NCBI GenBank assembly: GCA_000002435.2
Contig: CM018793.1
Length of the DNA: 64,000 bases
Direction: 5' to 3' (one strand)
From: Giardia intestinalis
Taxonomy: Eukaryota
The translations under genes and the position numbers were made by a program. Below the pieces are notes generated by a model. That model was not told the origin of the DNA. It worked only from the letters and a program-made list of their open reading frames with translations, and did no database searches. Positions 10,457-60,355 of this stretch are shown here, piece by piece. Numbering within the stretch: position 1 is the stretch's first letter; each line of letters opens with the position of its first letter.

Positions 10457-10461
10457 TAAAT
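10455..10461 (+). promoter_or_regulatory. AGTAAAT poly(A) signal overlapping the TAG stop of the WKF-domain gene
   Basis: gtatAGTAAATgag. TAG is at 10454-10456. Confidence 0.45.
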
Positions 10462-10468
10462 GAGACGC

Positions 10469-15984: not shown

Positions 15985-16145
15985 CACAGAAAATGAAAAG
16001 GACTTCCATGAGGCACTGTCCTCTATTTACTCGCCAGAGTAGAAAATCCTGAATAAGTATTGATACAGTTCTACGTCTTTTGAACACTGAGTTGTGTTTC
16101 ATCTTAACTAAAGTACTGGCCGTCTGTGGAGCAAGTTGGTGGAGA

Positions 16146-31142: not shown

Positions 31143-33002
31143 ATGCTTTGGACAGACATACTTCATCTTTGTCAGCAGTCATCTCTTCCTAGCAGGCTTG
31201 AGGGAAGATTTACAGCGGCTGTCTCCGCCTGTGATAATCACCTTCTCCTGAGATGTCTGCTGTCTGCCGCACAGTATGGAAACGTCCGGGCTGTGGAAAT
31301 CATTAACAAGGCCACACAGGATCGTATCTATACTACCAAGCATACTGCTCTATCTGTTGCCATAGAGTACCACCATGAAGCCATAGCCAAAATCTTGCTC
31401 CCAACCGAGGCTTGCATCACAAAGGTTACTGTGGCTATGAGCCGAGTAATAATGGGCGATCAGCTGCACAGTGTCGAGGCCCAAATAACGGCGTCAAAAG
31501 ACTTATGTTTTAAGGAGCTGTCCGAAAGAGATGTAGCGGGTCGGAGTCTCGCCGAGTACTGTATCCTCTTTCGACGCACGGCCCTTCTCACGAGAATATT
31601 GGAGCAAATAATGGAATTTCATTTGGACACAGACCTACTTCGCACTGCCTACCACGAGCCAATCATCTTTCTTGCCATAAGGGAGAGAGACCTAGACAGC
31701 TTTGTTGCTTTGTATGACTTCTGTTGTCGCCACGGGTTAAACCGCAGCATAGATAATCAGAGTTTGAAGAGTTACTCTATGTCCACGGGAGCTTCAGCCA
31801 TTGTGTGCTGGCTATCCAAACGACCGGAGCCTGGAGGTCATTTAAGCACTACATTGACCATTGAAACGCAGAGAAAATCTGTTACTATCATAGGATTAGC
31901 AGACTGTGGCCCAGGTTTTAGCAAAGTAGCTGGACGTCCACAGTTAGAAGGGAGCTCCGAACTTCAGCAATCCGATCCCGCACTCACGCCTGCCAGTGAT
32001 AAGGAAAAATCTACTTGCCTTTCCGAGAAGTCTGAGCCTTTAGTGTCCATGCTTTCACGTGAGTTAGAGGGATGTGCAATGAGGAATCACGACAGTACGT
32101 CTGCTTGCGATAAACACATCAAGGAATCTGGCCTCTCTTATTCATCCATGCTCAACCAGCTAGCTCTAATTGACAAAGACGAAGCTCTGCAAAGGAGTGT
32201 TCACTCGTTCATACATACAAATTCGGTGATAATGAATATCGTGCGGGCTAGCTTCTACAGCAATACGTCAGGCACTCTAGAGACAGATACGAGCCAACAC
32301 AGACCTCTGTTGGCAGAGCTGTCTGCCGTAAAGCTCTGTGGGATGCATCCGGTGTTTTCGATGAACATCATAGTGAAGCCTCCTGGTGTAGTTGCAGTGC
32401 AAGAGGCTCTTTTACAGAGTGAGGAGGTACTGGGTCTGACTCCATTCAGTGATCCACAACGCTTCACCCGATTAAACCCCCTGAACTATGATGATGCACT
32501 AGACACACTAGAGTGGTTTTTGAATACACCCAGTAGTGACATGGGTAAGATCTTTTTGCAGAACAAACTGGCTGTGGAAGTGCCATTTAACCGGTCCCAC
32601 AGCGTGGTTCGGCTTGAAACAGGTATCGATCTGATAATGCACAGTAATTCACCTTACTTCGAGATGGTTCCTTCGTGCGATGTGGAATGTAGGACTGAAG
32701 ATGGTCGCCTACTTGTTTTGGCGAGCTTCAACAGTGAGCTAAAGGAAGTTGTCGCACATATGCAGGACAGATATGTTTTTATAAGTGACTTTCTCATTAT
32801 GGGATTGAAGGGCAGATATGTTCGCGACTTGCTTAAGACAGGCAGGCGTTGGCCACGTAGCGGTCAATATGCATTATGCACCAAGCATGCTCGCTGCCAA
32901 CACTTATACTCTTCAGTGTGTGAACCAATGTGTGCATACACTGAAATAGAGCAGTTACTGCAGTACACGAGGCGGAGGATTTCCAGCGGGCAGAAGGTCT
33001 AG
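31143..33002 (+). CDS. Hypothetical protein with weak N-terminal ankyrin-like repeats, 619 aa
   Basis: ATG at 31143 with gcgctaaaaaatcgctcgg upstream. The N-terminus (LLRCLLSAAQYGNVRAVEIINKAT...HTALSVAIEYHHEAIAKILL) is ankyrin-like. The remainder is unrecognised. The last 48 nt overlap the convergent kinase-like gene. Confidence 0.45.
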   Translation: MLWTDILHLCQQSSLPSRLEGRFTAAVSACDNHLLLRCLLSAAQYGNVRAVEIINKATQDRIYTTKHTALSVAIEYHHEAIAKILLPTEACITKVTVAMSRVIMGDQLHSVEAQITASKDLCFKELSERDVAGRSLAEYCILFRRTALLTRILEQIMEFHLDTDLLRTAYHEPIIFLAIRERDLDSFVALYDFCCRHGLNRSIDNQSLKSYSMSTGASAIVCWLSKRPEPGGHLSTTLTIETQRKSVTIIGLADCGPGFSKVAGRPQLEGSSELQQSDPALTPASDKEKSTCLSEKSEPLVSMLSRELEGCAMRNHDSTSACDKHIKESGLSYSSMLNQLALIDKDEALQRSVHSFIHTNSVIMNIVRASFYSNTSGTLETDTSQHRPLLAELSAVKLCGMHPVFSMNIIVKPPGVVAVQEALLQSEEVLGLTPFSDPQRFTRLNPLNYDDALDTLEWFLNTPSSDMGKIFLQNKLAVEVPFNRSHSVVRLETGIDLIMHSNSPYFEMVPSCDVECRTEDGRLLVLASFNSELKEVVAHMQDRYVFISDFLIMGLKGRYVRDLLKTGRRWPRSGQYALCTKHARCQHLYSSVCEPMCAYTEIEQLLQYTRRRISSGQKV

Positions 33003-33830
33003 GACTGTTCTAGAGCTGCTATACACGCGCTGATCCTCGAGGATCTCATCAACTGTTATTCTTTCTGTAGGATCAAGGGACAGCATTCGCTGGCAAAGTT
33101 TTGATAGCTCAGGGGTTTGGAGCGCTATGTCTGAGATTTGAAATTCCTTTCTGCTCTCCTGAACGGCATCCACGAACAGAAGGCTACAAGTGCACATTTC
33201 ATACACCAGGCATCCTAACGCCCAAACGTCACTTGCCGTTGTTAGTACTCTGTCTTCTAGCTCTGGAGGAGCATACGCCCTACTCCCGTAAACCTGTAAT
33301 TGCTCCTTGTCAGCCAGAAGGGTCAGGGGGCACGCAAAGTCGAAGCCCGAAAGGAGGACCGTACCATCGTCTGCCACGAAGACTGACTTGCTCGTTATGT
33401 TCCGGTGCAAGAAACCGGTGTAGTCCCCAAAGGTAGCTGAGGTGTGCAGGTACTGGAGTGCTCGGGAGAGAGCGTTCATGACAGAATAAATGAATTGGAC
33501 TGAGGGAAGTGCATTGCTTTTCCGGAACCGCTCGAGCACGTCGGAGAGAGATCCGTGCTTGTATAGTGGAAAGACTAGCCAAAGGGTATTATCGTCGTAG
33601 TCTGCGCTGTACAGCACGGGCGAGTCAATGTTAGAATGTTCCAAGGAGTCCAGCAGAGGGCCCTCTTGGCGTAGCATATGAAAGTAAACGGAGTCATCGC
33701 TCAGCTCACTGCAGTCGACCTCTCTCACAGCATAGATGTTGCTTGTGGCAGGATCGATGGCTCTATATATCACCGAGTGGGCGCCGATCCAAATCGTCTC
33801 GGTGCAGAGGAGATCCTCGAGGCTCCTCAT
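32955..33830 (-). CDS. NEK-type protein kinase-like protein, predicted catalytically inactive (pseudokinase), 291 aa
   Basis: The track ORF 32955..34076 begins in RPL4 sequence; the first ATG after the RPL4 stop is at 33830 (MRSLEDLLCTETIWIGAHSVIYRAID...). A kinase fold is recognisable: YGSRAYAPPE (APE motif) and DVWALGCLVYEM (DxWxxG). The catalytic residues are substituted: HRNITSKS for HRDLKxxN, GFDFA for DFG, YAVREV for VAIK (Lys to Arg), and there is no GxGxxG loop. Confidence 0.6.
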   Translation of the reverse strand: MRSLEDLLCTETIWIGAHSVIYRAIDPATSNIYAVREVDCSELSDDSVYFHMLRQEGPLLDSLEHSNIDSPVLYSADYDDNTLWLVFPLYKHGSLSDVLERFRKSNALPSVQFIYSVMNALSRALQYLHTSATFGDYTGFLHRNITSKSVFVADDGTVLLSGFDFACPLTLLADKEQLQVYGSRAYAPPELEDRVLTTASDVWALGCLVYEMCTCSLLFVDAVQESRKEFQISDIALQTPELSKLCQRMLSLDPTERITVDEILEDQRVYSSSRTVLDLLPAGNPPPRVLQ

Positions 33831-33853: not shown

Positions 33854-33860
33854 ATTTACT
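33854..33860 (-). promoter_or_regulatory. AGTAAAT poly(A) signal overlapping the TAA stop of RPL4
   Basis: Plus strand gcgATTTACTtggg. The TAA stop (33858..33856 on the minus strand) lies inside the heptamer. The kinase-like gene's ATG is only 26 nt further downstream. Confidence 0.45.
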
Positions 33861-34806
33861 TGGGCATGACCGTTCCGCTGGGATCGAGGCGGGCCAGGGC
33901 CTCCTTGGAGGAGAAGGGATCGACCTTACGCTCGATGACCAGAGGATCACGCTTGGGCACGAAGGTCTTCTGGACGGCGTCGGACTGGAGGATGCGCTCA
34001 ATATCCGTCTGGGTGATGCAGGATCTCGGGAGCGTGTAGTTCTGCTTGGCGGCGTAGACGTCATCAAGGGACGCAAACGCAGACTTCGTCCAGAGAATGA
34101 GGCGGCCTGGGTGCGAGCCTGGGGCCAGCTCTAGAAGACGGATGCTCGAGACGTGGCAGAGGTCAACGCCCGGGAGATTGCGGAACCCGCGCGCGACATC
34201 CTCTGTGTTGTAGATGACGAGAGGCCCTTTCCTGGTGATGTAGCGGCGGTTCCTCATCTTCCCGCGACCGGCGCGGATGTGTCGACTATCCTTGCAGCGC
34301 TCAACGTCACGGAGAACGCCGACGGCCTTGATGATCGCCAGCGCGTCCTTGGTCTTGGTGACGTTGTCTGTGTCGACGACGAGGGGAATGGACGGAACAT
34401 CGGCGATGCGGTGCCCGCGTGCCTCCACAAGGGCCGCGTTGGCTGACGCCGCAAGGGCTGACGCGACGGCATACCTCCTCTGGTTCAGGTTGACCTTGCG
34501 GCACCACCTCCTGATGACTGTGGTGGGGTGGGCCATGTGACCGCCGCGGGCGAAGTTCGCGTAGGCGCCGATCCCCCCGTGCTTGCGAGGAAGGCGCGCC
34601 ACGGCACGCCCCGGGCCCCAGGAATGCGCAGTGCACTGGACACCGGCGTAGCGGCTGACCGCATAGGGCGTCCTCAGACATTTGCGGAGCTGCGTGTGGA
34701 CAAAGTTGATGATATCGGGACGCAACGGCACATTGAACACCTTGGGCCTCGGAAGCTCCGCAACCTGGGTTCCTGTGGGGCCGAAGACCTTGACAGTCGG
34801 GTTCAT
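33856..34806 (-). CDS. RPL4: 60S ribosomal protein L4 (uL4), 316 aa
   Basis: ATG at 34806 with caaaaaattgttgaagg upstream. Matches human RPL4 along its length: RPDIINFVHTQLRK (RPDIVNFVHTNLRK), PYAVSRYAG, HSWGPGRAVARLPR (ESWGTGRAVARIPR), RGGHMAHPT (RGGRMFAPT), WRRWCRKVN (WRRWHRRVN), QRRYAVASALAASA (QKRYAICSALAASA), RAGRGKMRNRRYITRKGPLVIYN ([23 protein letters not shown]), LELAPGSHPGRLILWTKSAF ([20 protein letters not shown]). Confidence 0.9.
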   Translation of the reverse strand: MNPTVKVFGPTGTQVAELPRPKVFNVPLRPDIINFVHTQLRKCLRTPYAVSRYAGVQCTAHSWGPGRAVARLPRKHGGIGAYANFARGGHMAHPTTVIRRWCRKVNLNQRRYAVASALAASANAALVEARGHRIADVPSIPLVVDTDNVTKTKDALAIIKAVGVLRDVERCKDSRHIRAGRGKMRNRRYITRKGPLVIYNTEDVARGFRNLPGVDLCHVSSIRLLELAPGSHPGRLILWTKSAFASLDDVYAAKQNYTLPRSCITQTDIERILQSDAVQKTFVPKRDPLVIERKVDPFSSKEALARLDPSGTVMPK

Positions 34807-34881
34807 CCTTCAACAATTTTTTGGCCCACCGAAGCTGACAATATTAATTTGGCTTCTGGTGTCCCAAAAAAAGGGCCCTCG
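34807..34881. promoter_or_regulatory. 75-bp head-to-head spacer between RPL4 (-) and RPS29 (+)
   Basis: ccttcaacaattttttggcccaccgaagctgacaatattaatttggcttctggtgtcccaaaaaaagggccctcg. It has A/T-runs adjacent to each ATG (caaaaaattg for RPL4, cccaaaaaaaggg for RPS29). Confidence 0.45.
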
Positions 34882-35037
34882 ATGCGCGAGACAGAGTTCT
34901 GCACACACATTGCTCACAAGCGTGAGTGCCGTATATGCGGCAATTACAACTCTGTCTACAGAAAGTATGGTCTGTTCATCTGCCGCCGCTGTTTCAAGGA
35001 GAATGCTGGCAAGATTGGCTTCGTGAAGCTCCACTGA
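34882..35037 (+). CDS. RPS29: 40S ribosomal protein S29 (uS14), 51 aa
   Basis: The track ORF 34528..35037 is an alternative-frame read-through across RPL4. The real gene starts at ATG 34882 (MRETEFCTHIAHKRECRICGNYNSVYRKYGLFICRRCFKENAGKIGFVKLH). Zinc-ribbon residues align with human RPS29: [38 protein letters not shown]. Confidence 0.8.
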   Translation: MRETEFCTHIAHKRECRICGNYNSVYRKYGLFICRRCFKENAGKIGFVKLH

Positions 35038-35058
35038 GCTGAGCGGGCTAAAGTCAGA

Positions 35059-35070
35059 AGTAAATTTACT
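35059..35070. promoter_or_regulatory. Perfect 12-nt palindrome AGTAAATTTACT, equivalent to AGTAAAT on both strands; candidate bidirectional poly(A) signal for convergent RPS29 and the dynein heavy chain gene
   Basis: gaAGTAAATTTACTgg sits in the 42-bp spacer between the RPS29 stop (35037) and the DHC stop (35080). It is 21 nt after the plus-strand stop and 9 nt after the minus-strand stop. Confidence 0.5.
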
Positions 35071-35079
35071 GGCCTGCAG

Positions 35080-38000
35080 CTAGTCACTCCTTTGGATGAA
35101 GGCGGCTGCCCCGCGCAGGATCCAGTGCCTCGGGTCTTTGCTCGTCGGAAGATGCATGTTTAGGACGTAGTTGGTGCTGGTGCCTGTGGTAGAAAGAACC
35201 CCATAGCGAAGAGTGGTAGTGTACAGGGGCATAGCATACATCTTCTCTTTGTCAAGTTCTGTGCACGGGGCAAACCAGACAGGCCCCAGGCTAGTGATCA
35301 TCTGTCCATAAACAGGCTCTGTCAACTCCTTGGCCTCCGCGTCCCACTGAGCAGACTCAACATAGAGCCCAGTGATAATCAGCCCGGGGTCGTTCCGGTC
35401 TGGGGCAACCATGGTGTCGACTTCCGTGGTTGTAAGAACGGTGGTGGAGATGGCCAGGGCATCGATTGGTATTCCCTCAATGCGAGAATAATGCTGAAGC
35501 TCAGCAGTGAGAAGTCCGTGGGGGAAGAAGAAGGCACCTATCCAGAAAGTCTTGGGCACGTAGCCCTTGATTTGCCAGCGGAAGTCATCGACTCGGTAGT
35601 CGACTCCTTTCTCTCTGTCCAGCTCAATCCAATCGGCCATAAACTGCACCCGATCGATCAGATCCACAATCCACGAGCTTAGTGGCTTGAGCGTGGGATA
35701 ACAAACATCTGTTATCATCCGTGGAATCTTGTTCAACAAAATACACTGATAGACGTCCTCCAACTGGGGAGACATGATCGCCAGTCCTTTAATTGCCTTC
35801 CCCACGTCCTGAAATGCAACTCGGACAAGAGCCAGAAGCTTGTTATACCGTTCAGATTCTTGCTTGAGAACTGCGTAAAGAGGAGAGGGCATCTTGACCG
35901 CCTTTCCGTTGGACACCACTGATATCCGCGGAGGAATGTGAATGTTGCTTGGCAGTAAGTCTGCGGGGATGCGATCGAAGAGGCTGCTAGCGAATTTAAG
36001 GACCTGTTTGTCTGCTGGAGACATAGACTCGTCGTCTCCACCGTCCTGGATCTCCGGTTCTTGGCCTTTGCTGCTAGCGTCGGACTCAATTGCGGGTGCT
36101 TTGCTCTGTGCCTTTGCGCTCTCGATGCGCTTCTTGCGCTCCTCATTTTCTATGGCAACGTCAGCCTCCTTAGGAGACATGGAAAGCACTGAATCTACTA
36201 TAAGGTTGGCCTCGGAATGCTGATAGGTAAGCTCTGCATTAGCGTGGAGCCCAAATAAGCTTGGAGACGCCTCCACAGGAAATTCGTGGGTGAGCCACTC
36301 TATAGTCGACGCCAGGCTCATCTCTGGGTTGGGAGCTTTGTACACCTTTCCACTTGGGGACACCTTGCTCTCCTGACCCTCCTCTAAAAAGAGTTCTGGT
36401 TGGTCGGTGAAGAGCTCTGGATTGATGATGCATGAAAGGATTGCATTAATGCAGCGTTGGTCTAGGGAATCCGTAACGCGTCCTCCGAAGGCAATAACCC
36501 CTACCATGTACTGAAGGGTCTGGTAAGGCACTGCGTTGGAGAGGGACTTGAGGAAGTTCTGGCCAGATGACTGCCCAAGTATGTTTGATGTTCCAACGGT
36601 TGACTCAGTTAGCTGCAGTGCAACGGCACTATCCACAAGATATTGACGGATGAACTTGCGGCTTATTTCCAGATCCGGTATGCTGAATTCATACGGGTTA
36701 TTATACGCAACAGACCCAAACCTTTTACGCTCCAAAAGAGACGAGTAGAAGAACGCAACACCGAAAATAAGCCTGTGCCAGTGACGGAGTACAGCAGGGG
36801 CCTCTGGAACAGAGTCGTGGAGCTCTTCAGTGAGACCCATATAAGAGAGAATCAGATTGGCCTTGAGTCCACGAGGAGGCTCGTGTGAGATCTTGACAGA
36901 TGAAGAAAGGACTGACTGAGGGAACTTCGATGTGGGAAGGGATGTGAGGAAGAGGCGGAAGTCCCTGTTGATTGCTGCACCAGTGATATCACATCCATCT
37001 TGATCCATGGTTGCCAAGTTCTCTACGAAGCGCGCGAGGTTTGGCATCCAGCTGAGACAGAGGTGGCAATTCTGAAGACAGACCCAGTCGCCTTCGATAA
37101 TGGCGCGGGCGAGCATTCTTTCTGCGATGACTCCCTGACCCTGACCAAGTGAGAGTGTCCGCAAACCCTTGTCTGCTCCCTTTTCCTTTGAAAAAGCCAC
37201 CAGCTGTGCGTGCGGGTCTGTCCCTGCACTCAGCACGAAAATAGTTGGAGTAGAAAAGCTGGTATCCAGGTACGCCTGCTCCATACGGAACTGTGGAGGC
37301 TGGACATAGTACTCTCCTATCGTGTCTGCAATATATTGAGGAATGTAGAACATCAAACGACCTGGATTGATCGCCTTTAAGAGCATAAGGCGCTGGAACG
37401 GAGCAAGCGACCTGATAAAAGCACTAACTGACAGGGAGAACGGGCGCTTTCCGTTATAATTTCCACGAGCCATATCGACAACCAGCTCCAGGTCATCACT
37501 TTCTAACCATGCTTTCCAGCCCTCAGGATCATCACGCGACGAGGAAAGGAATTCGTCATATGCCAGACAGGCATGTAAGACCTTATATATGGCATTGATG
37601 TTTGCATACTTAGAGCCATCCTGGCCAAACTGAAGAGTGGCAAGCATATGAGAATAAAAGTCATCGGGCACTTCCGACTGTTTTTCGTTGATTTCCACGT
37701 TCTTGAAGATGGCCCATTCCCTGCCAGTTAAAGCCCCTGAGGCACGCTGAATGGAGACGGCAACCATAAAGCTGAAGATCCGCTTATGTTTTTCGAAGAT
37801 GCCTCTGCATATAGCTCCGTAGGCTGCCTCCGTGATGGCGGATATCATGCTTCCTATTTTTCTCTGTAGAATTGCACTCTCATCACTTTCGAAACTGGCA
37901 TCGGCCGCTAGTAGCCTATCAGGAACTCCAATATTGGACTCTGCCATTTGGTTACGTTGGCTCTGCTCATCGTCGTCCAACAGCAGCCCAGCCGAGGCCG

Positions 38001-41000
38001 AGGGCTCATTTGTACCGATGTAGGACCGGTTGTCGCTGCGCCTCGAACTTTCAGCAGCGTGTGATACCCCGCTAGTTTCGTCTGCAAGGCTCTGGAGTTT
38101 GCTGAGGGTCCTTGTGAAGAGCATCTTAAAGAAGTCAAGAGAATAAATGTACATGGAGTCAAGCGTCGAGAGGCTAGCAATGACCTCGTACAAAATTCGT
38201 CCTCGCTGTGCAACCGGGCGGAAGCGCTCACGAAGTGCATCAACCCGCTTTGCAGTCTGCTCTGCGTTGACGACTTGCTCATCGATACGCTTCTGTGTTT
38301 GCTTGGAGTCCTGGAGAGCATTGATGAGGTTTTCGTCGTCCAAAAGGTTTCCTGTAGCATTGGCTAACATATCAAGTAACTTGTCTTGCAACTGCGTTAG
38401 CGTTTCACGGCCCTCGGCAAGCTGCGAGGCAATCGTGTCCTTTTCACGCTCAAGCTGTGCATCTTCGACAGTAACAACGAGAGAAAGAAGCTGTTCCTCC
38501 AGCCCCTTCGATGACACAGCCATGTTCACAACAGACGCAGACGACTGGATGTCTGGGTTGTAGTTGGGCTGCCGTTTGCGCGTAGCGAGATAAAGGTTGA
38601 AATCTGGGTTGTACTCTACTTCGTTCTCACCTATCTTTATTGTACACTGGCCACCCTTCTTTATAAGCTCTTTCCGGAGGACAGACATCACTGAGCCGTC
38701 AATGTCGTCTTGGAGATTTTCTATCAGAACAGGAGAGCCCAGACGTATGCTATTTTCGAGCGTCCGCATCATGTTATCGACAGCGGTCCCAGAAGTCAGT
38801 TGAAGGCCGTTCTTCTCCTCCAAGCGCTTTAAGAAGCGAACACCCTGACACTCTGGATCGATAAGAAGAGAAAACCGGGTCCCCTGCGTCGCAATGATTG
38901 CAGATTCTACGCTTCCGTTATCAGATGGGAGCGTGCACTGCTCTTTCCAGTTGCGGATTTCGCGGGGGTCGGCAACAGCGGGGTACTCTGTCAAAGCAAA
39001 GTTGGGAGAGAAGTCTATTCCATTGAATGCAGTTGCCTTCCACTGGGCAAGCACGTTTCCGCGTTCATCTGCAGAAAAGGGTCCCAGGTAGGCAATGTAG
39101 CCAGCACCAAGTAGGGCATCTCCAATAGCGGTCTTCAGTCGTTGGTTAATGTCTGCAATACCTGCAATCCATGCATCGTATTCATTTGCAAGGCCAGCAA
39201 TCAGCTTCTCTGCGCGGTCAAGCCGTACCTGCGTTTCCTCGATTTCTGACTCTAATCTGGTTCGATTGGCAATACTCTCATCATAAGAGGCCTGCAGAGC
39301 ATCCAGCTTTGCTACAATGGCCGCAAGGTCCTTCTGCTTAACAGCCAGTGCCTCCTGCTGGGTCTTGAGGGTCTGCTCGGCTTGAGCCAACCGTTCACGC
39401 TTAGGCTCTATTTCAGCGAAGACTTTCGCATATATATCGATGGCACGACACCACATACACAGCGACTTGGCTGCCTTGGAGACCTTCTCAACCTTTGCTG
39501 GATCAAAGTCAGGATTCTGTGTGTACTTTCGAAGGGAGCGCAGAGTTTTGGGCTTAATGTTGTCTTTATCAAAGGTCATAAGGCTCTGCAGGAAGTCTGT
39601 CTTAGAGAGAACCTTCTGCGCCGTGTCCCAGTCTTGCTTCGGTGTCTCCATTAGAATGCAAACGGCCTCCATAACATATCGCACAAGTTCTGGAGGCGAC
39701 TTGAATGACTTGAGTTCGGAGATATCATTCTTGTTAAGACTCTTAAGGCTATTGATGGCCGCGTTGAAGGCCGGCATAGCCGTGTCCAGGTCTCGCTGGG
39801 CGTCATCTTTGATCTCCTCGGCTTCTGCTGCAACCTTTGCAACCTCTTGTTCCTCTGCTTGAACGACTGTTCTAATCTTGTTGACCTCCTCTGTTTCCGA
39901 CGACAAGTTTACGAGCAACGCTTCTGTTTTCGCAACGGAGTCAGCGAGCACGGGCTGTAGATTTGTGAGGGTCTTCTGCATTTCGCTAACCTGCTCACGC
40001 GTCGAAACAAGTTTTGTGAGACCAGACTGAAGGATAGACTCCCTCACCTTGAGCTTGCCGACTGATTTAGCAAAAATTCGCTTAAAGAGGCGAATGAAGG
40101 ATAGGAAGAGCGGTGGAGTAATATAAATGCGGCTCTTTGTCTGAGCAAAATACTGTTCAGAGGACGCCTCTGTTGATCCATGCATAACGACACACGCCTC
40201 TGCAATGCTCTGTTTTAGAGCAAGGAGCTTGTCGGTACGTGGCTTGCCTTCACGGGAGTGCGGGGCAGAAGTGGGGGTTTCAGATGCCGCACTTTGGTCG
40301 GCTCCCAAGAACGCCGGGTGGATGCTGTTAAGCTCGTACATAGCCACACCAGCTAGCGCTTCAGCGTTCCAGTTTGCAAACCAGTCAATAGTCATACAGC
40401 TCGAGAGAGCCGGGAACATCCGCAAGCGGCGGCGAAGGCTCTCTCCAATTGGTGAAAGACAGAGGCAGACGTGGAAGTTGCTTCTTGCGTTTCGGTAGAA
40501 GAGTTGCCAAAGCTCATGAGGCAAGAAGGATCGCTTACTGCTAGACTCGTTATCATCGTCAGCGACCGACGCCAACTCGATCGTTTTCTGCATTATCTTC
40601 TCCTTCTCATCGGGTTTCCAGAGGGACATTGGAAGCGCAACGCCGTTCAAGATGCCATTGAGGATCTCAAGGAAATGATCGTGGGGATCTAGCTGCGACT
40701 CCGAAAGCAGCAGAATAGTTGGAACGTTCTCGCAGCCACTTGTAAGCATACAGCGCTTTAAATCCTCGTTAAATTCGTTGAGCCCATAGAGCTTAGATGC
40801 TGCTGGGTAAACGACCTTTGCGCCCGCTGCAAAAGCTGCAAGGCGGACCAAGCTACGCCGCCCACTTCCGGACAAGCCAATCATGAGCATGTGTCCGCGA
40901 GGCTGTGTGATGACGCGGAAGAGGCGAGAGAAATGTAGGATAGCATCGTGGAACATGACTAGACGCGCAGATCCAGCAGAGTCGTCATTTTGGATGGCGT

Positions 41001-44000
41001 TATCGAGAAGCTCTTGGAAGTCTACCTGACTCTTTGCTCCAGCAGAAGGCGGAGGGTCTTCCTGGACCTCTGAAATGGAGTCAACGTAATAGTTAAGGCA
41101 ATTCTCGACGTCTCGTGTCTGGTTGAAGAGATTTCTGTAGGGACAGTACACTCCGTCGCCATAGGTTCCTCCAGGATTGGCCCAGCGCCCATAGATTAGC
41201 TCAGTGCATTGTATTGGGCAACCTGTCCACAAATTTATGCGCTCGAGCATGCTGCCAAGCTCCTCGTCAGTGTAGACCTTCTGCTCCAGGGCGGCAAGAC
41301 GCTGCACTTCATCGTCAGATCGCTGCACAGGCTCTTCAAAGTCAAGCTCAATGTAGTACTCGTCCTCCTCAGCTCCCTCGTCCAGCTCCTTCTTGCCATC
41401 CTCGGATGCATTAGACGTCTTTTGCTCAAATTGTACAATCCTGTCTTCAAAGAAGTACCAGATATTCTTCAGTAAGACTTTGTCAAATGTGCCGCAGTCC
41501 TTGTCGTCAACTAGACGGTCTCTGAAAACGCGATAAGACTCGTGCACAAGCAGTGTGACCAGGCTAGGCAGAGACGTAACCTCATGTGGGGTGGTAGAGA
41601 AAACTCCTCCAACCACTCGAGCAATATCTCGGACGTTAAACGAATAGTGCGATTTGAGCGGTGTTGCCCTGATCTCCTGCTTGGTTGCACTATACAGGCG
41701 GACGACAAACTCAACGCACGTACGCAGACTCTTGCGAACTTCGGGAGAAAAGGTCTTAGATGACTCCCCGGTCGACGCCATGAATCCTTGAAGAAGATTG
41801 CCGAATATGCTGATCATGGCTGAATCTGTTAGCTCAGGGCAGCTAAGCACCACAAACTTCCCACTAAACCGACGCGTCACCTCATTGCGCCCGCCTCCCG
41901 GAGGCTGGGACGCACAAAGGAACTGAAGCCCCTCCAAGGTGCGGAATACAAGCTTCTGGCGGTCATAGCACCCTGATTCCGAAATGATCTGCCTAAGAAT
42001 CTCAATAGGAGGCTGAGATCCGTATGTGTCCGGAGTGGGCATAGTTGAGTCATCAATGAAGACATAGAATGACTTTCTTTGATTTGCTGGACAAAACAGC
42101 GTTTTTCTCTTCTTTTCCATCTTCTCAATGATTGCGTTTTCTACGGCTGCAGCGCGTGTCTGGGCCGACATCGGAAACTCGAGCGTGTTAGCGTTCAGGT
42201 AAGCAGCCTCCTGAGTGAAGTCGCGCTGCTCTTCATTTGGTACCACAGCGGTAGGCTCTTCCTCCTCTTTAGTATCGGCGCTCTTCTTACTTTCTGCAGG
42301 CTTCTTATTCAGCTCTATATTGCCGATACAACGGTTGAAAATGGTCTTAACGATAGATGTTTTGGAGGTCCCGGTAGGCCCACAGAGAAAAATGTTGTTA
42401 CCATTGCGAAGGAGCGACTGAGTCACCGCACACATTTTTATAAAGTCTGGCGTCGGAACAATCATATCATAGACAGACCCTCCTTGCTGGAGCACAAGGG
42501 GATCAAATTTCTTGCTGCCAAACAAAGTGGCCATGGTGCCGGTATCCCACGGAGAGTAGCCTCGGGTTTGATTATCAAGCTTCCAGTCATAGATACTAGC
42601 GGGCTGGCCTCCCGGAAGGTGGTCAGGAGGAAGTGCTACGGCAAGAGAGGAGATCTCCGCAGGCATGTCGCCACTGCTGGCAAACTCCTTCGGGCTTGTT
42701 AAGAGTGTACGAAGGAACTTATCTAGATTGATCTTATGTTCAGCAACAATACTCCCTGCTAAGCCCCATGCAATTGCAAAGATAATGCGCTGCTCCAATA
42801 TGATAGAAACGACCGGCGCTATTCCAGACATCGCTCGACTTGTCAAGACTTCAGGAGGGGGCAGTCTCTCTAAAAAGGTCGAGATGGCTGTCTTCTCAGC
42901 AAGGACGGTGTCCGCTGCTTGGCCGGTGGCTAGTTCTGGAGCTCCTGAGCTAGCCGTATTACGCGACGCACTCTGCACACGTTCCCTGTTGATCGCGCTT
43001 GCAGCCTCGTATTGCTCCTGGATCTTTTTCTGCATGGCTATCTCTGCAACCTTATCTTTTGTGAATGCAACGCGCTCAGAAACAGCTGCTTCGAGGATCT
43101 GATAAAGAGAAAAGACCAGTTGGAAGTCGACTGTCCGCATCTCCTCTCTGCAATCGTTGCGCAAAAAGCTGATCACCTTTGGGTAAACCATACAGAGTTG
43201 TCTGTGAAGCCGAGCTAAAAGCTGCACAGTGAGCTTATGAAGCAGTTGCTCAAATGTCTGGAATTGCCGTAATGGGCGAGGATATGTAGGAACTGACAAT
43301 TCAACTGTCTGCGCGTCACCGCTCTGTGCAGGGGATTGGTTATCGATCAGGGGCTCGGTGCCATGTGCATCTGCCACAGGTAAGTCAGGCTTGTACTCGT
43401 CGATATTCTCATCTTCCTCGTCAGGTAGAAGAGTCGTCGAGTCCATGAGAACCCTGGCCGCGTCTCGCAGTTCAAATAGGTCGAGACTGAACTCCTCGAG
43501 ACAAACAAGAGCAAGCACCTTTTGAGCAAAGTTGGAGCAATTATCAACAATAAGAGACTTTAACAGATTATTGTACCCGATGAAGTCGTCAGAAAAGTAG
43601 ATCATTCCACAGCGGCTGACTGTGGCAGGCGACGCTTGGCTAAGGTCTGCTACCTCGAAGAATAGATTAACCTTGTTGTGGAGGCGGATACGTTCTCCGT
43701 TGGCTAGGCAGATCATTTTATTGTCATCTAGTGTTGTGTTCAGATTCTCTATCCAAAGGGCGTCCACAGGTGAGTCAAAGCAAATCCAATGCTTTAGGTG
43801 AGCATTGTTGGGATCGATCATCTTCCGCGCAATGACAGCTATCAGGCCATCAGTCCAATCATGAGAAATACTATTGAATTCCCCATAGAGCTCTGGCATG
43901 GTGACGGCCTTGCTGTTTAAAACATACTGGGCGACGGGATGATAGCCATCAGGGTCCATATTCTGCGCAGCTCGCTGTTCGGCTATGGCAGTGATAGCAT

Positions 44001-47000
44001 CTGCCAAGACATTTCTAGCCACGGTCTTTCCTGTCAGAGTGTCTCCTACCGTCATTAGCCCATGTCTTATAATGTGAGTATCATAGATCTGGAGAATCTT
44101 GCTGACGTATTCAGCACACGGTTGAAGCCCTTTGGCTGAGAGAATTCGAACAATCTCTGCGTGTAACCCGCCGTGCTCCACAGAGGGAATCTGGACGCCG
44201 GGGAAGAGATCCTGGATAATGCCCATGAAGAGCTCGATATCGTCAACGAGGAACTTCGGCAAGTTGGCATCACGCATGGCCTGGATGAGGACTATGTCCT
44301 CGCTTAGGTGAATATACTTGCGCCGTAGCCCACCAGCCATGACAAGGACCGATTTGATCGCACGCATACCGAAATCGTAATGGCTCTGGTGCGATAGCTG
44401 CTCCGAGCTGAGCTTGTAGAGCTGCACCATCTTGCGGCTAAGGACCTTGGCCGTTGTAAAGCCCTCTGAGAAGAGAATGATCTCCGCAATTAAGGCGTAG
44501 TTGGGAACAACCATAGAGATAGGGCGGAAAAGTGCCTTCAGGTTATCCGGAAGCTCCACACGGCCCGCATACCCTGGGTTCATTGTGATGAATATACCGC
44601 AGCGCTTTGTCGGATCCCCGTTACCGACCGATATGTCTAGGCCATCTTCTGACGATCCTCCTGCGTTGAAGAGGAAGTGATCAGCGCCTGTAAGGATTGC
44701 CGTTTGAATGCAAAGGATCTGGGATGCTACGACAGAAAGAACCTCAACCTCAATGCGGTTGAACTCGTCAAAGCAGCTCCAAGCACCGCACATCACCAGG
44801 CCAATAAAGAACTTCCCCATGGCAGCAACATTGAGCCCCTCTGAACAGTTAAAGACGAGGCATTGGATGCTCATCGCTTTAGCAAGGTCCTTTGTCGACT
44901 CCGTCTTACCTGTGCCTGCAGGCCCCTGGGGGGCCCCGCCCATGAAGTTCGCCAGCGCCGACGTTAGCGTAATGAAGCATCTGTCCGTCAGTGGTGTGAG
45001 AACCAACCGTGTACTGATGCCCATGTACTCGTATCCGCACGTGAAAAATGAGTTTGTCTGTCGAATAACAAGATCTCCAGAGAATTCATCGGAATCCAAC
45101 TGAGAATGCGCTACCCTTTTCGCTTTATCATTATGGTGCCAATAGTAGCGGAGCTGCTTCAGCCACCCAAACTCTGATGGGATAAGACAATAGTTTTCTG
45201 AGGAGGAATCTAACAAAGAGCTTGTGACGTCACGGCTATGGACCTCTAAGACAATAAGCGTCGAGATGAGCCCCCGCTGCTGGCTGCTCAGATCTGTCAT
45301 GGTGAGGGAGACTAGTTCGTTAATCTGCTTCAGAAGATTTTCACTAAAGCGCTCCATAGCCTCTCTCCCACTAGATCCCTTTTCGGCATCGATGAGTAAG
45401 GCCTCTTCCACCCCATTACACCACACAGCTTGGCCAGCAGCCATGACACACTGCGCAGGATGGTCAAACATCCATTCTTTGCGTTGCTCTCCGACCCGAG
45501 GAGAAAAGCTTAGAGTGTGATACATGTTGTAGCGCACCGTATTCACCATTTCCTTTTCAAGCGCAGTGAGCCAGACTTCCACTAGTCCACCAGATGGAAC
45601 GACGCAGTTGACAAACATGACTTTTTCGCCCTCAGGAGAGATCATGGCAGTTATCTTCTTCTGGGGACCGGAGGCCGGTAACGAGGGCTCGTCCTCATCA
45701 GCATCTTCTGTAGTTGCCATTCGTTTGCGCCTTTTGGCACTAGCCGATGTGGTAGTTGTAAGTGGTTGCTCACCCAACTCCTCGAGCTCTATATCTCCAA
45801 TAGCTTCAAAGATTTTCCTAAGGAAGGGTCTAACAGTGCTGGGCTCCGTCGTCTGAGCAAGAATCTGGAGAAGTTCGTCGTTTGATAGGAAAAAGAAGCG
45901 TGGAAACGCAAGACGCTTGGACTCAAGGTAATCTTCGAGACGTTTCTGGATTACCTCCAGCTTTTCATTGGCAGCTGTCAACTCCTTAAGAAGGTCGTGG
46001 TTTGCAAGGGGCGTATTTGGGATCCCTGCATCCACGACTGTCATAATGCACGGGTTGCTTGCAACAGTCTCCATTAGCTTCTGCCAAAACGCATCAACCT
46101 GGGAGAAATCAGCGGACTCGCGTGGAAGCTGTCTGCGGATATCATCTGGTGCAAAGATGCTCTCCAGATACAGCCAGGTTTGCTGCATCTTGCACCATTC
46201 GTCTAGCACCTCAGCAAATGTACTGAGCTTCTTTTCCCATGACTCCACGGCCGGTTTGATCCCTGCAATGTATCTGGATCCAGCCATCGCTTGAAGAGTA
46301 GAGGTGGAGTCTTCCAGCTGCTGATAGATCTCCTCAACGCCAGAAATTATGTGGTGCAGGACACCAGAACGAGAGCTGTATTCCTTGACAGCCAGGACGG
46401 TTCCTTCCCATATACACCGTATTTTCTCCAGAGAAAGCTCTATGTTGCGCTCTCCGCTTGCAGTAGCAGAAATCGATGCTATCTCGGCGCGCTTATTCAG
46501 AACACCAGCATCTAGGAGCGTCTCAAACGAAAAACCCGAGTTATAGCTCAATGACCCTGGCTCCTTAGCAAATGGCTTCAGAGTCTCAAAGATCTTTTCC
46601 CAGTGGCGTGGCTTTAGGTTAATATTCCCCAGATCAGCGATTAGCTGGGACTTCTGCTTCATAGATGTAACAGCCCTCTTCAGTGCAGCTGCGACACCAT
46701 CCTCTGGGAGAAGTCTAGCGAACTTTGTCGAATCCTTAGTTGCTTCATTAATGAAGCTTAGACACGTTTCTGCACTGAGGTACTTGAACTTGGCAACAAT
46801 CGGGTCTACTTTTTTCTCTGTGTCATCAGCACTTTCGTCATGAGCATCGAGTGCATCATCGGCTGCCGCCTCTCCTTCAGCTGCGTCCTTTTCGCCTTCG
46901 ACTGCCGAGGCAACAGCAACGCCAGCTTCGTTAGGCTCTGCCTCTTCCAGTTTGCAGTTAATGACGGTGTCTATCCAAGAAGAGACCATAAGACGATCCT

Positions 47001-50000
47001 CGAATATGCGCCATTCGTGCATGCGTTTCCACATGCGACTTCGCAAGTCCAGATCTTGTTTGATCTGTGCGATGGTCCCTTTCAGCTCCGTCAGAGTCTC
47101 GATATTCGACATACAAACCAGCTGACTAGGAGTAGCATTCTGGCCTGGGGAAAGCTTAAGGGGCTCCTTCTTCGTCCTTGGCTTCTCAGGCTCGTCTTCG
47201 TCCTCTTCTGCTTCTGCGTCCCGATTATACCATCCCGTAAGGATGTCATTCTGATCAGACAATCCACCGTAGTGCTTTGTCATATCGTTAAGCGTCGCAC
47301 TCAACTCATCGATGTGGCTGACAACAGAGCGCGGATCGGCGTTAGAATCACAAGCAGATCCTGATAAAAGCGTGAGCCTAATGTCGTTGATGTCGTTGGT
47401 CGTCGTGGTGATCATTTCCTTGAGGGAAGATGCCATGACATAGTGCTGGTCCTTAACTAACTGGTCAGCCAACGCGCGCCTGTTCTGTAAAACCTGGAGC
47501 TCCCCATGAAGCGTATCAACAGAGGTGCGATCAGAAACAGAAACCTTAAGACCAAGGCCTGGAATTGACGGATTGAGTTTTGCATCCATAGTAAAGAGGT
47601 CGTCAACTGTCGTAGACACATCAAAAGCAACAAACATTTGATTAGGAGGGGTTGACTGGAGATTGTTCGGTGAGGTTAGCATAATTAGGATATCATCAGC
47701 CAGCTGGACCTCAGAGATGAGGTGCTCAATTTCCTTGTCGATCGATCGGTTATACTCTATGTAATTACAAAACTCTGTAAGAGTCTTCGGCTCGATAGAA
47801 AGGACCTTTGTGTGCGTTTTAAACGCAGTGGTGCACTTGGAAACGAGGTTGCGCAGGACAGAGAGAGCTGTATTCTCGACGGCCTTGAGCCCAATAAGGG
47901 GAACAGGCTGAAGAGTCTGCAGGAGGCTGCGCGCGTCTAGCTGCGTGAATCCTGTCGAAGTATTTGCAGCCATGCGCGAAAGAATCTGAGACCAGCCCCG
48001 GAAGATCGTGATTTGACGTTCCAGTGGTCGCGTGCCATAGGCTGCGCGTGCCGATTCAAATGTATCCTCCAAAAGGCGGCGATCCTCTAGTGGGACCTGT
48101 TGTGGATTAGGAGGATTTTTGAGGTAAGAGTGGAGCTTTGTGACTTTCTTGTTTGTTGTGGGATTCACAATGAAACTTGGTAGAAGGAGCTTTAGATCAC
48201 AGCTGAGCGTATCCTTGAACTTTGCCGCGTAGAGCTCCTCGTTCCAGGTGGAGAGAAAGGCGTGAATAGGATAAAGCTGAGAGTAGCTCTTCGAGAAGGC
48301 CTCCAGCTTTGCAATTTGCTCGGTCGAACTATCACGTATTACCTTGAGCGCCGCCTGGACCTCTGCATCGTTGCTGGCGATGGTTGAGATATTCTGAGGG
48401 TTGGGGAGCTGTTTGTTGGCTAGAATAAAGTATTCTCGGAGGGCGGCCAGCTGGCTGAGATGCGTCTGCTGTGAGCATACGTTAATGGCCTCCGAGACGG
48501 AGTCCAGAAGAGTAGCCTGTATCTCATGCAGGGGTGGATTAAATTGAACATCTCCAACGAGGGGAATCTCCTCGTAGCGCTTTCCTGGGGGAATTTCTTG
48601 GAAGAATATTTCTGAGATAATAAGTCCGGGCGTGGCCGGAGGAGGGTTTGCAACTGCGTTTGCTAGATTCAGGGTGCTGGCATAAATCATTTCGAGCATG
48701 GCCTCATTGTACAAAAAGTCACAGAGCACTATGAAGTCGGAGATAGTCACAAGTTCAAACTGAGCCTGCTGTATTGCTCGGCGTCTGTGGAGCTGCTCGG
48801 CTTTTGTAGCGGTAATGGACTTGACCTTTGCTATCTTCTGCCGCATAAAAAGTGGAAGCTTGGCCTGGTCCATCTCGTCATCGTCACTCGCCCTCTTTCG
48901 CAGCTCATTGCAAAGAGCGGTGATCTCGGTGAGTATGCTGTCGTTGGCTGCGTCCAAGGATTCAGACACTGTGCGCTTTGTGTGTATTTGCGCAGCCTTC
49001 CACGCCTGCAGAGGCTGCGCGATGCCAGAAGGCAGCGAGGGCACGTCTCCTGACCCGGAAGTGGTGAGGCCCTGCGCGGATGCGCTGATGGCACTTTCAT
49101 CTGCATCATCACGCTTGGGTGCAGTAGTGTTCGAGGTAGCCCGCAAGTCAATACATTGAGACATCTTGATGTCATACAGTATAGCCCATATGGTCTTGAG
49201 AGACTGCAGGAAGTGTGGCCTGGATAGGAAAAGAGACTTAGTAATACTCTTGCGATTACGACAGTAGCGTTTGTACTTTCGGAAAGCTATCCATGTCTGT
49301 AGGGTCTTGAGCTGATAGAAGTGCTTAAAAAACTTGTAGTTCCGCAGTATGTCAAAGTTAGACGCCTCCAATATCCATCTATCCAGCATGGTAAACTCGG
49401 AAGCATCGTCGTGGAATGCCGTCACGAGGTCGCTCTCTATTGTCCTACTGAGGATGTTTGGGTCGGTCTGTTCTGGCTTCCGGCGGTGGCTCTTGTCGCC
49501 CCTAATTCCTGTGTCGATGCCGGAGCTGCGGTGCTGGAAGCCATCATTGGAAGAAGCGTCCCCAACAGCGTCGCAATGCACCCTGCTGGTAGCATCATTG
49601 CCGTCGCTAGCTCCGTCTGACCCTGCACAAGGGTCGAGTGCAAAAAAATCAGTGTCTGTGCCGCCGGGAATTCCATCCTGGCGCAATGGATGTGCTAAGT
49701 TTTTATCGACTGTCTTTTCAAGTTTGTAGAGGCTCGGATTAAGAGTGCTCTTGTCATTGATCATGTCGTAGACCTTTAAAACCTTGACGTCACTATTGAC
49801 CACACGCATGACGCCGTTCTGGGATATTGTGTAGTAGACAGGAAGCTTCTTTGCGACGTCACCGTCAATGACGCGTAGGCTGTAGGGGTTATATACCTTG
49901 TCAACCGGGGTGGTGGTGGGCGAGCAATAGACAATCTTGACGACTGCCTTGTCGGGCGTCCGTGCAAAGTATGCAATGACGTCAGCGCCCGTTTTCATGC

Positions 50001-50433
50001 CGCCCACGAGTCTCTCAGATGTAATAATCTTCTTGGTTTCTGCATTACGGGTGCGCAGAGTCTTAGACGCATTTGATATAATTGCTGGGCGCGCATTCTT
50101 GAGCATCCCAGGCGGTAGGGACGCTTCTGAGTGCATCTCAAGGCGGTGCAGAAGACTGCCTGGAGCCCCTCGAATCGTGCACTCCCCGGTCCCGAGCGTC
50201 CGGGTGCATGCGCAATCAAGGGTTTCGTCGGCTGGTGTGATATGTGCTGGTCGCACAGGGTCGAGGTCGAAGGGGGCATACTCCTCCTCGTTGTACGTGA
50301 AGAGCTGATCGGAGAGATGCGGCGTTTGGCGCGATGCGTGCTCCTGGGCTCTCACCAGCTCCATGAAGTACTCTGCGCTGGATGCGTGCCTAGGGGCACC
50401 CTCGCGACGGGCCGGAGTGTCTTGGCGAGACAT
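35080..50433 (-). CDS. Dynein heavy chain (motor domain with AAA1-AAA4 P-loops), 5117 aa, single uninterrupted ORF
   Basis: ATG at 50433 with gacaaaaaagc upstream. AAA1 reads [75 protein letters not shown], matching the canonical DHC Walker A and CFDEFNR signature. AAA2 is [15 protein letters not shown] and AAA3 is [14 protein letters not shown]. A long N-terminal tail and coiled-coil stalk are present. Several acidic or Ser-rich low-complexity insertions likely explain the large size. The subfamily (axonemal versus cytoplasmic) was not resolved. Confidence 0.9.
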   Translation of the reverse strand: [5117 protein letters not shown]

Positions 50434-50638
50434 GCTTTTTTGTCCTGACTCGGATTTTGTGCTGAATTTACATGTTGCTATTTATGAAACAAAGCTCACG
50501 CATACACAGGCTCCGGAAAAATAAATGTAGCGAACCCACGCGCAAGCGTTGCTACGAGGCGATGGAGACAAAAGCAGTTACGTTCGCAACTCTCTGAGGG
50601 TTCCTGATGCTTCCTTGGATGTCCGAGCCTTCCTTTAC

Positions 50639-60354: not shown

Positions 60355-60355
60355 A

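What the first reader, a model, noticed from the sequence alone, without database searches (positions are those of the whole stretch)
35038..35079. Perfect palindromic poly(A) element AGTAAATTTACT shared by convergent RPS29 and dynein heavy chain genes
The 42-bp spacer contains the 12-nt palindrome AGTAAATTTACT at 35059-35070. On either strand it reads AGTAAAT, the Giardia AGTRAAY poly(A) consensus. It lies 21 nt after the RPS29 stop and 9 nt after the DHC stop. A single symmetric element could therefore terminate both convergent transcripts. The palindrome could also be a binding site for a dimeric factor.
Basis: partly seen in the sequence, partly recalled or inferred. Interest (0 to 1): 0.55.

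Follow-up and report, generated by a model that had tools for sequence, protein, structure and literature searches.

The report
Back-to-back poly(A) signals, Giardia convergent genes
Two Giardia genes that face each other (ribosomal protein S29 and a dynein heavy chain) have their standard AGUAAA mRNA-end signals placed back to back, which makes a 12-base palindrome; this is a tidy, strongly conserved case of genome compaction built from known parts, not a new kind of element.

Summary
AGTAAATTTACT lies at 35059-35070 in the 42-nt spacer, 21 nt after the RPS29A stop and 9 nt after the dynein heavy chain (DHC) stop. It occurs once in the window.

It is two abutting AGUAAA hexamers, one per strand. 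Each supplies the other's 3' pyrimidine, the main context feature of genuine Giardia poly(A) signals.

- **RPS29A half:** supported by published mapping. The 3' UTRs are 36, 34, 34 and 33 nt in WB, AS175, P15 and GS. This puts the end 13-15 nt after the first A of the hexamer, and it follows the palindrome rather than the stop codon.
- **DHC half:** inferred only. Its poly(A) site was not in the stored supplements.
  - The 12-mer is invariant in 8 haplotypes of at least 5 G. intestinalis lineages, against 21 of 31 variable columns in the rest of the spacer (p = 6e-5).
  - The DHC-stop-to-palindrome distance is always 9 nt.
  - There is no alternative hexamer within 300 nt in the window (200 nt in the other haplotypes; assemblage B has only a TGTAAA at +118).
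- **G. muris:** same gene order, but a 226-nt spacer with separate signals.
- **Dimeric DNA-binding factor:** nothing supports it.

Palindromic bidirectional poly(A) arrangements are already described in C. elegans, zebrafish and yeast. Verdict: real and functional, but ordinary. Genome-wide enrichment could not be tested.

The parts
34882..35037 (+). RPS29A coding sequence (51 aa, GL50803_39483), stop TGA at 35035-35037
   Evidence: PF00253 Ribosomal_S14; name and WB coordinates CH991768:119616-120029 for the older 137-aa model, which has the same stop
35038..35079 (.). 42-nt spacer between the two convergent stop codons
   Evidence: it is 41-43 nt in other G. intestinalis lineages
35038..35073 (+). 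RPS29A 3' UTR as mapped in WB (36 nt); the mRNA ends 6 nt before the DHC stop codon
   Evidence: Franzen 2013 supplement, converted to window coordinates
35059..35065 (+). RPS29A poly(A) signal: AGUAAA hexamer (35059-35064) plus the 3' pyrimidine U (35065)
   Evidence: The mapped ends fall at signal positions 15, 13, 13 and 13 in WB, AII, E and B. This fits the modal 13-15 nt of PMC9014877
35064..35070 (-). Inferred DHC poly(A) signal: AGUAAA hexamer (35070 down to 35065) plus the 3' pyrimidine U (35064)
   Evidence: It is the only WGURAA or AAUAAA hexamer within 300 nt downstream of the DHC stop. It is invariant and always 9 nt from the stop in 8 haplotypes. Its use has not been mapped
35059..35070 (.). 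12-nt perfect palindrome AGTAAATTTACT, the two hexamers tail to tail
   Evidence: present once in each of the 18 G. intestinalis loci that match
35055..35070 (.). 16-nt invariant block CAGAAGTAAATTTACT; the extra CAGA covers the predicted DHC cleavage region
   Evidence: alignment; the meaning of the extra 4 nt is unproven
35054..35079 (-). Predicted DHC 3' UTR (about 22-26 nt, cleavage expected near 35054-35058); it would overlap the RPS29A 3' UTR by about 16-20 nt
   Evidence: Inference from the 13-15 nt signal-to-cleavage rule; not measured
35080..50433 (-). Dynein heavy chain coding sequence (5117 aa), stop TAG at 35082-35080
   Evidence: Pfam DHC_N2 and AAA_6-9 on the orthologous gene calls

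Best explanation
The palindrome is two ordinary Giardia poly(A) signals placed tail to tail in a spacer that has shrunk to 42 nt. RPS29A pre-mRNA, read from the + strand, contains AGUAAA-U at 35059-35065. The cleavage and polyadenylation machinery recognises this in the RNA and cuts 13-15 nt further on, at 35073 in WB. DHC pre-mRNA, read from the - strand, contains its own AGUAAA-U at 35070-35064 and is predicted to be cut near 35054-35058.

Because the hexamers abut, each provides the uridine-rich 3' flank of the other, including the critical pyrimidine. Both 3' UTRs fit inside the spacer without entering the other gene's coding sequence, and they overlap each other by under 20 nt. The dyad symmetry is a by-product of two RNA signals facing each other, not a DNA recognition site.

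Shown: the sequence, its conservation, and the RPS29A poly(A) site. Inferred: DHC use of its half, and RNA-level recognition by CPSF, by analogy with other eukaryotes and the Giardia literature.
For: - Both halves match the experimentally defined signal. AGUAAA is the commonest hexamer (45% of genes), cleavage is usually 13-15 nt after its first A (PMC9014877), and a 3' pyrimidine explains over 70% of the difference between genuine and coding-region hexamers (PMC11529991).
- Published RPS29A 3' UTR lengths are 36, 34, 34 and 33 nt in WB, AS175, P15 and GS (PMC3610916 supplement). The mRNA end therefore falls at signal positions 15, 13, 13 and 13. The GS value follows a 1-nt deletion upstream of the palindrome, so the site is set by the palindrome and not by the stop codon.
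- RPS29A mRNA is polyadenylated: 86 nanopore reads, median tail 52 nt.
- Conservation: 12 of 12 palindrome columns are invariant in 8 haplotypes of at least 5 lineages with down to 80% nucleotide identity. In the rest of the spacer 21 of 31 columns vary (p = 6e-5), and both stop codons change.
- The TTTACT half is not needed by the RPS29A hexamer, yet it is invariant and always 9 nt from the DHC stop.
- No other WGURAA or AAUAAA hexamer lies within 300 nt downstream of either stop in the window, nor within 200 nt in the other haplotypes, except a TGTAAA at +118 on the DHC strand in assemblage B.
- The signal class works in this window. Of 47 AGTRAA hexamers, 9 lie within -5 to +60 nt of a sense stop, against 0.58 expected (P = 6e-9). 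Only 6 lie in sense CDS against 26 in antisense CDS. The neighbouring RPL4 has a stop-overlapping signal and a mapped 11-nt UTR.
- DHC orthologues in outgroups also have a canonical hexamer soon after the stop: TGTAAAG at +37 in G. muris and AGTAAAC at +25 in an unidentified diplomonad.
Against: - The DHC poly(A) site was not seen. Its row is missing from the stored parts of both published tables.
- 46.8% of all mapped WB poly(A) sites, including intragenic sense and antisense sites, lack a prominent hexamer (29% of intergenic ones). A non-canonical DHC site is therefore possible.
- The extra invariant CAGA (35055-35058) is not explained by the hexamers alone.
- Conservation of TTTACT could in principle reflect a downstream requirement of the RPS29A site.
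Confidence: 0.75

Rival explanations
1. Only RPS29A uses the element. The DHC transcript is processed elsewhere, at a non-canonical or distant site, and the TTTACT half is conserved as the U-rich region between the RPS29A signal and its cleavage site.
For: U enrichment flanks Giardia cleavage sites. A large minority of mapped sites have no prominent hexamer, and many 3' UTRs run far into the neighbouring gene: 81% of tail-to-tail pairs overlap. The DHC site is unmapped here.
Against: All six positions are invariant, including the A and the C, which a U-richness requirement would not fix. The bases just beyond, where RPS29A is actually cut, vary freely. The offset to the DHC stop is fixed at 9 nt while that stop codon itself changes. 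DHC orthologues in two outgroups have a canonical hexamer close to the stop. [quoted passage not shown]
Confidence: 0.15
2. The 12-bp dyad is, in addition or instead, a DNA site for a dimeric protein, such as a termination, boundary or chromatin factor acting between convergent genes.
For: Perfect dyad symmetry and complete conservation. Nucleosome-depleted bidirectional termination zones exist in yeast.
Against: Two RNA-level signals explain the symmetry and the conservation completely. The 12-mer is unique in 64 kb, and none of the other convergent junctions in the window has it. G. muris keeps the gene order without it. No Giardia factor of this kind turned up in the literature searches.
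Confidence: 0.05
3. The arrangement exists to create a short sense-antisense overlap or a hairpin in the 3' UTRs that couples the stability or expression of the two mRNAs.
For: The two UTRs are predicted to overlap by about 16-20 nt, and the 12-mer is self-complementary.
Against: No 3' UTR fold is better than its shuffles (z between -1.3 and +0.8) and there is no Rfam match. The overlap is short, whereas overlap between tail-to-tail transcripts is the norm in Giardia. Yeast bidirectional termination zones show little or no gene-level coupling of expression between convergent partners.
Confidence: 0.05

Closest known systems
Giardia lamblia AGURAA (WGURAA plus 3' pyrimidine) poly(A) signal (Peattie 1989; Adam's AGTRAAY consensus; Franzen 2013 PMC3610916; Bilodeau 2022 PMC9014877; PMC11529991, 2024)
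   Same: Each half is the strongest variant, AGUAAA followed by U. It lies a few to about 20 nt after the stop. For RPS29A the mapped cleavage is 13-15 nt downstream.
   Different: Two such signals on opposite strands are fused into one 12-nt palindrome. The Giardia papers I could search do not describe this arrangement.
Palindromic arrangements of bidirectional poly(A) elements at convergent genes in C. elegans (Jan 2011, as cited) and zebrafish (Ulitsky 2012, PMC3460199)
   Same: Convergent genes, signals on both strands in dyad arrangement, cleavage sites close together, and little or no intergenic space.
   Different: Those use AAUAAA with U-rich elements. Here the hexamer is AGUAAA, Giardia lacks the known auxiliary elements, and the second cleavage site is not yet mapped.
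Yeast bidirectional termination zones centred on the palindromic UAUAUA efficiency element (bioRxiv 10.1101/2022.11.02.514956)
   Same: A symmetric sequence serves 3'-end formation of both convergent transcripts in a compact genome.
   Different: In yeast one self-complementary hexamer is literally shared. Here two distinct hexamers abut and share only their flanking bases.
Dual-use stop codon / poly(A) signal in diplomonads (G. lamblia, G. muris, S. salmonicida)
   Same: The same drive to compact 3' ends. The neighbouring RPL4 (AG|TAA|AT, 11-nt UTR) is an example.
   Different: Neither stop codon here overlaps its signal; the offsets are 21 and 9 nt.

Membership tests
Giardia AGURAA poly(A) signal | AGURAA hexamer on the sense strand at or shortly after the stop codon | tested here: met
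   AGTAAA at +21 for RPS29A and at +9 for the DHC
Giardia AGURAA poly(A) signal | Pyrimidine immediately 3' of the hexamer (PMC11529991) | tested here: met
   T at 35065 on the + strand and T (complement of A35064) on the - strand
Giardia AGURAA poly(A) signal | Mapped cleavage/poly(A) site under 20 nt (mode 13-15) after the first A of the hexamer: RPS29A | tested here: met
   Published UTR lengths of 36, 34, 34 and 33 nt place the end at signal positions 15, 13, 13 and 13. Poly(A) tails were measured on 86 reads
Giardia AGURAA poly(A) signal | Mapped cleavage/poly(A) site under 20 nt after the hexamer: DHC | not testable with these tools
   The DHC row is absent from the stored parts of both supplements. 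A protein search for RNA-derived contigs found nothing
Giardia AGURAA poly(A) signal | Purifying selection on the hexamer relative to its flanks | tested here: met
   0 of 12 columns vary, against 21 of 31 in the rest of the spacer, p = 6e-5
Palindromic bidirectional poly(A) elements of convergent genes (C. elegans, zebrafish, yeast) | Convergent genes with signals on both strands in dyad arrangement | tested here: met
   it is the only back-to-back pair in the window
Palindromic bidirectional poly(A) elements of convergent genes (C. elegans, zebrafish, yeast) | Poly(A) sites of the two strands within a few tens of nt of each other | tested here: inconclusive
   The + site is mapped at 35073. 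The - site is only predicted, at 35054-35058
Dual-use stop codon / poly(A) signal | Stop codon lies inside the hexamer | tested here: not met
   Offsets are +21 and +9 nt. It is met by the neighbouring RPL4
DNA palindrome bound by a dimeric factor | Recurrence of the motif at other sites, or evidence of protein binding | tested here: not met
   Unique in the 64-kb window and absent from G. muris. Protein binding is not testable here

The most novel reading that the evidence does not exclude
Tail-to-tail fusion of two AGUAAA hexamers might be a recurrent, selected way of compacting convergent 3' ends across the G. intestinalis genome. It would be favoured because each hexamer automatically gives the other its critical 3' pyrimidine and U-rich flank, and because both transcripts end before entering the partner's coding sequence. 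The exact 12-mer, or near variants, would then be clearly over-represented among the 1,321 tail-to-tail junctions and conserved between assemblages. It might also couple 3'-end processing of the two genes.
Probability: 0.15. Interest if true: 0.4.

Novelty: new member of a known kind. Interest (0 to 1): 0.22.

Why it matters
This is a clean illustration of how far a compact eukaryotic genome can squeeze 3'-end signals. Two genes are finished inside 42 nt by 12 conserved bases.

It also gives a convenient natural test case for Giardia poly(A) signal strength and context. Positions 35059-35063 belong to one signal only, 35066-35070 to the other only, and 35064/35065 to both.

It does not change what is known about the signal, the machinery or convergent transcription in Giardia. 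Palindromic bidirectional signals are already described in other eukaryotes.

Tried and rejected
**DHC poly(A) site**
- I searched the stored supplements of PMC9014877 and PMC3610916 by product name, candidate gene IDs, neighbour IDs (AS175_3734, GLP15_3620, GL50581_4245), gene coordinates (104220, 119573) and predicted site coordinates.
- Only RPS29A and RPL4 rows were found. The files were cut when stored.
- PMC11529991 has no stored supplements.
- A search with the last 300 aa of the DHC, meant to find RNA-derived contigs ending in poly(A), returned no hit at E <= 1e-80. I did not repeat it.

**Genome-wide enrichment**
- No Giardia genome collection can be scanned with these tools. Genome contigs holds only bacteria and archaea, and collection scans need at least 14 specified bases.
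- Only the window (8 tail-to-tail junctions between my ORF models; one more overlapping pair was seen) and the orthologous loci could be examined.

**RNA gene or structure**
- There is no Rfam hit in 34500-35500 at E <= 1.
- No fold is better than its shuffles. This reading is rejected.

**Chance**
- Rejected on the conservation evidence.
- A rough estimate of mine, not computed, suggests that a few exact abutments genome-wide would arise simply from two independently placed signals among 1,321 convergent pairs.

**Bacterial tools**
- The promoter/terminator scan was not used. It does not apply to a eukaryote.

Full report
**What is there**

The window is Giardia intestinalis WB, assemblage AI. 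Its RPL4 protein is identical to the WB entry, and the gene coordinates map exactly onto scaffold CH991768.

- RPS29A (51 aa, PF00253, GL50803_39483) runs 34882-35037 on the + strand.
- A 5117-aa dynein heavy chain (DHC) runs 35080-50433 on the - strand.
- Their stop codons are 42 nt apart.
- It is a perfect palindrome and reads AGTAAAT on both strands.
- It occurs once in the window. No exact match appeared in 100 dinucleotide shuffles. With up to 1 mismatch the expectation is 0.12.

**Anatomy**

The two core hexamers do not share base pairs. The + strand AGTAAA is 35059-35064 and the - strand AGTAAA is 35070-35065. Only the seventh, flanking position of each (35065 and 35064) falls inside the other hexamer. 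The "single symmetric element" is therefore two signals placed tail to tail.

**What is known about the signal**

- AGUAAA is the commonest hexamer, found in 45% of genes, and AGUGAA in 15%. Cleavage is usually 13-15 nt after the first A and under 20 nt in over 90% of cases. Giardia lacks the usual auxiliary elements (PMC9014877).
- The nucleotide just 3' of the hexamer, preferably a pyrimidine, explains over 70% of the difference between genuine and coding-region hexamers. Little beyond this 8-nt element matters (PMC11529991).
- Both halves of the palindrome are therefore the strongest hexamer in the best context. The abutment itself supplies the pyrimidine on each strand.

**The signal class operates in this window**

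- Of 47 AGTRAA hexamers on both strands, 9 lie within -5 to +60 nt of a sense-strand stop. The expectation is 0.58 (binomial P = 6e-9).
- Only 6 lie in sense coding sequence, against 26 in antisense coding sequence.
- The neighbouring RPL4 (GL50803_17547) has its stop inside AG|TAA|AT. Its published 3' UTR is 11 nt in all four isolates studied.

**RPS29A half: shown**

The supplement of Franzen et al. 2013 gives RPS29A 3' UTR lengths of 36, 34, 34 and 33 nt in WB, AS175 (AII), P15 (E) and GS (B). I placed these on the sequences of WB, an AII genome, P15 and GS.

| Isolate | 3' UTR (nt) | mRNA end, as position in the signal |
|---|---|---|
| WB | 36 | 15 |
| AS175 (AII) | 34 | 13 |
| P15 (E) | 34 | 13 |
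| GS (B) | 33 | 13 |

- GS has a 1-nt shorter stretch between the stop and the palindrome, and its UTR is 1 nt shorter. The end is therefore set by the palindrome and not by the stop codon.
- In WB the end is at window 35073, 6 nt before the DHC stop.
- RPS29A mRNA has measured poly(A) tails: 86 nanopore reads with a median of 52 nt.

**Conservation**

I fetched orthologous loci through the adjacent RPL4 protein. They cover AI, AII, E, B, a B variant and a more divergent lineage of undetermined assemblage, at about 80% nucleotide identity to WB.

- The 12-mer is present once in each of the 18 G. intestinalis loci that match.
- Among 8 haplotypes the 12 palindrome columns are invariant.
- In the rest of the spacer 21 of 31 columns vary (Fisher p = 6e-5). 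In the flanking genes 165 of 251 third-codon positions vary.
- The RPS29A stop is TGA, TAA or TAG, and the DHC stop is TAG, TAA or TGA.
- The stretch before the palindrome is 20-22 nt. The stretch between the palindrome and the DHC stop is always 9 nt, although 7 of its 9 bases vary.
- The invariant run is 16 nt, CAGAAGTAAATTTACT. The extra CAGA lies where the DHC transcript is predicted to be cut. Its meaning is not established.

**DHC half: inferred**

I could not obtain the DHC poly(A) site. Its row is not in the stored parts of either published table, and a protein search for RNA-derived contigs failed. The indirect case rests on four points.

- The TTTACT half is not part of the RPS29A hexamer, yet it is invariant. 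The bases just beyond it, where RPS29A is actually cut, vary freely.
- The offset to the DHC stop is fixed at 9 nt.
- No other WGURAA or AAUAAA hexamer lies within 300 nt downstream of the DHC stop in WB. None lies within 200 nt in the other lineages, apart from a TGTAAA at +118 in B.
- DHC orthologues in outgroups have a canonical hexamer soon after the stop: TGTAAAG at +37 in G. muris and AGTAAAC at +25 in an unidentified diplomonad.

The predicted DHC cleavage is at 35054-35058, giving a 3' UTR of about 22-26 nt. That UTR would overlap the RPS29A UTR by about 16-20 nt. Neither mRNA would enter the other gene's coding sequence.

**Origin**

G. muris keeps the order DHC, RPS29, RPL4. Its spacer is 226 nt, with separate signals: AGTAAAC at +18 for RPS29 and TGTAAAG at +37 for the DHC. 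The palindrome is therefore a G. intestinalis feature that goes with contraction of the spacer.

**Rivals**

- *DNA site for a dimeric factor.* Two RNA signals already explain the conservation. The 12-mer is unique in 64 kb. None of the other convergent junctions in the window has a back-to-back pair.
- *The DHC uses another site.* This remains possible at about 15%. Of all mapped WB poly(A) sites, 46.8% lack a prominent hexamer (29% of the intergenic ones), and long 3' UTRs are common.

**Comparison with what is known**

- Overlap of convergent transcripts is the rule in Giardia: 81% of 1,097 mapped tail-to-tail pairs.
- "Palindromic arrangements of bidirectional elements" giving close cleavage sites of convergent genes are described in C. 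elegans and zebrafish.
- In yeast the palindromic UAUAUA element serves both strands in bidirectional termination zones.
- An Arabidopsis study reasoned that signals in a shared polyadenylation region would have to be palindromic.
- I found no paper that mentions this 12-mer or this arrangement in Giardia.

It is a new instance of a known kind, built from a known signal.

**Not tested**

My rough estimate is inference, not computation. With 1,321 convergent pairs and AGUAAA in about 45% of genes, a few exact abutments would arise from independently placed signals. One instance is therefore not evidence of a special mechanism.

**Verdict**

The dimeric-factor idea is unsupported. The feature is functional and strongly conserved, but ordinary.

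Noticed in passing
window 50526-50631 (+): Giardia C/D-box snoRNA GlsR2 (the miR4 precursor; Rfam RF02335, 133.9 bits). It lies in the 205-nt gap between the DHC start codon (50433) and the stop of the upstream 1199-aa gene (50639).
   Followed up: no
window 33854-33860 (-), RPL4 33856-34806: The RPL4 stop codon lies inside AG|TAA|AT, a dual-use stop and poly(A) signal. Its published 3' UTR is 11 nt in all four isolates. G. muris RPL4 ends in AG|TGA|AC.
   Followed up: yes
window 34624-35037 versus 34882-35037: Older WB, GS and P15 annotations give RPS29A as 137 aa (414 nt), overlapping the 5' end of RPL4 on the other strand. The conserved S14-domain ORF is only 51 aa, as called in G. muris and in newer assemblies. 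The long model looks over-extended.
   Followed up: partly
window 60350-60358: The 1031-aa gene (57259-60354, +) and the NIF3-family gene (60356-61162, -) are 1 nt apart tail to tail. The + gene's stop sits in AG|TGA|AC. The - gene has no canonical hexamer within 120 nt, so its 3' UTR must run into the partner's coding sequence.
   Followed up: partly
window 10455-10468: ORFs 10001-10456 (+) and 10469-11041 (-) are 12 nt apart. The + gene has T|AGTAAAT overlapping its TAG stop. The - gene has no canonical signal nearby.
   Followed up: no
window 32955-33002 and 14278-14357: Two convergent ORF pairs overlap in their coding sequence. ORF 31143-33002 (+) and the kinase 32955-33827 (-) overlap by 48 nt. 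ORF 11142-14357 (+) and ORF 14278-15987 (-) overlap by 80 nt.
   Followed up: no
window 6583-6669: A tRNA-Arg(TCT) gene at 6597-6669 (-) starts 10 nt after the stop of ORF 6027-6587. That stop lies inside AG|TAA|AC.
   Followed up: no
whole window: AGTRAA hexamers show a strand asymmetry within genes: 6 on the sense strand of coding sequence against 26 on the antisense strand. This fits the published depletion of the signal in ORFs.
   Followed up: partly
window 35055-35058: The four bases CAGA to the left of the palindrome are also invariant in all lineages, while the matching bases on the right side vary. They lie where the DHC transcript is predicted to be cut. With about two-thirds of neutral columns variable, four more invariant columns have roughly a 1% chance (my estimate).
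   Followed up: partly
L021 3222-5000 (Logan SRR31929897, unidentified diplomonad, RPL4 63% identical): A 375-aa gene lies between the DHC orthologue and RPS29, so the two are not convergent neighbours there. The DHC orthologue has AGTAAAC 25 nt after its stop.
   Followed up: partly
window 54458-57205 (+): [quoted passage not shown] AGTAAAC lies 29 nt after its stop. An antisense AGTAAAC sits at 57194-57200, just inside its 3' end.
   Followed up: no
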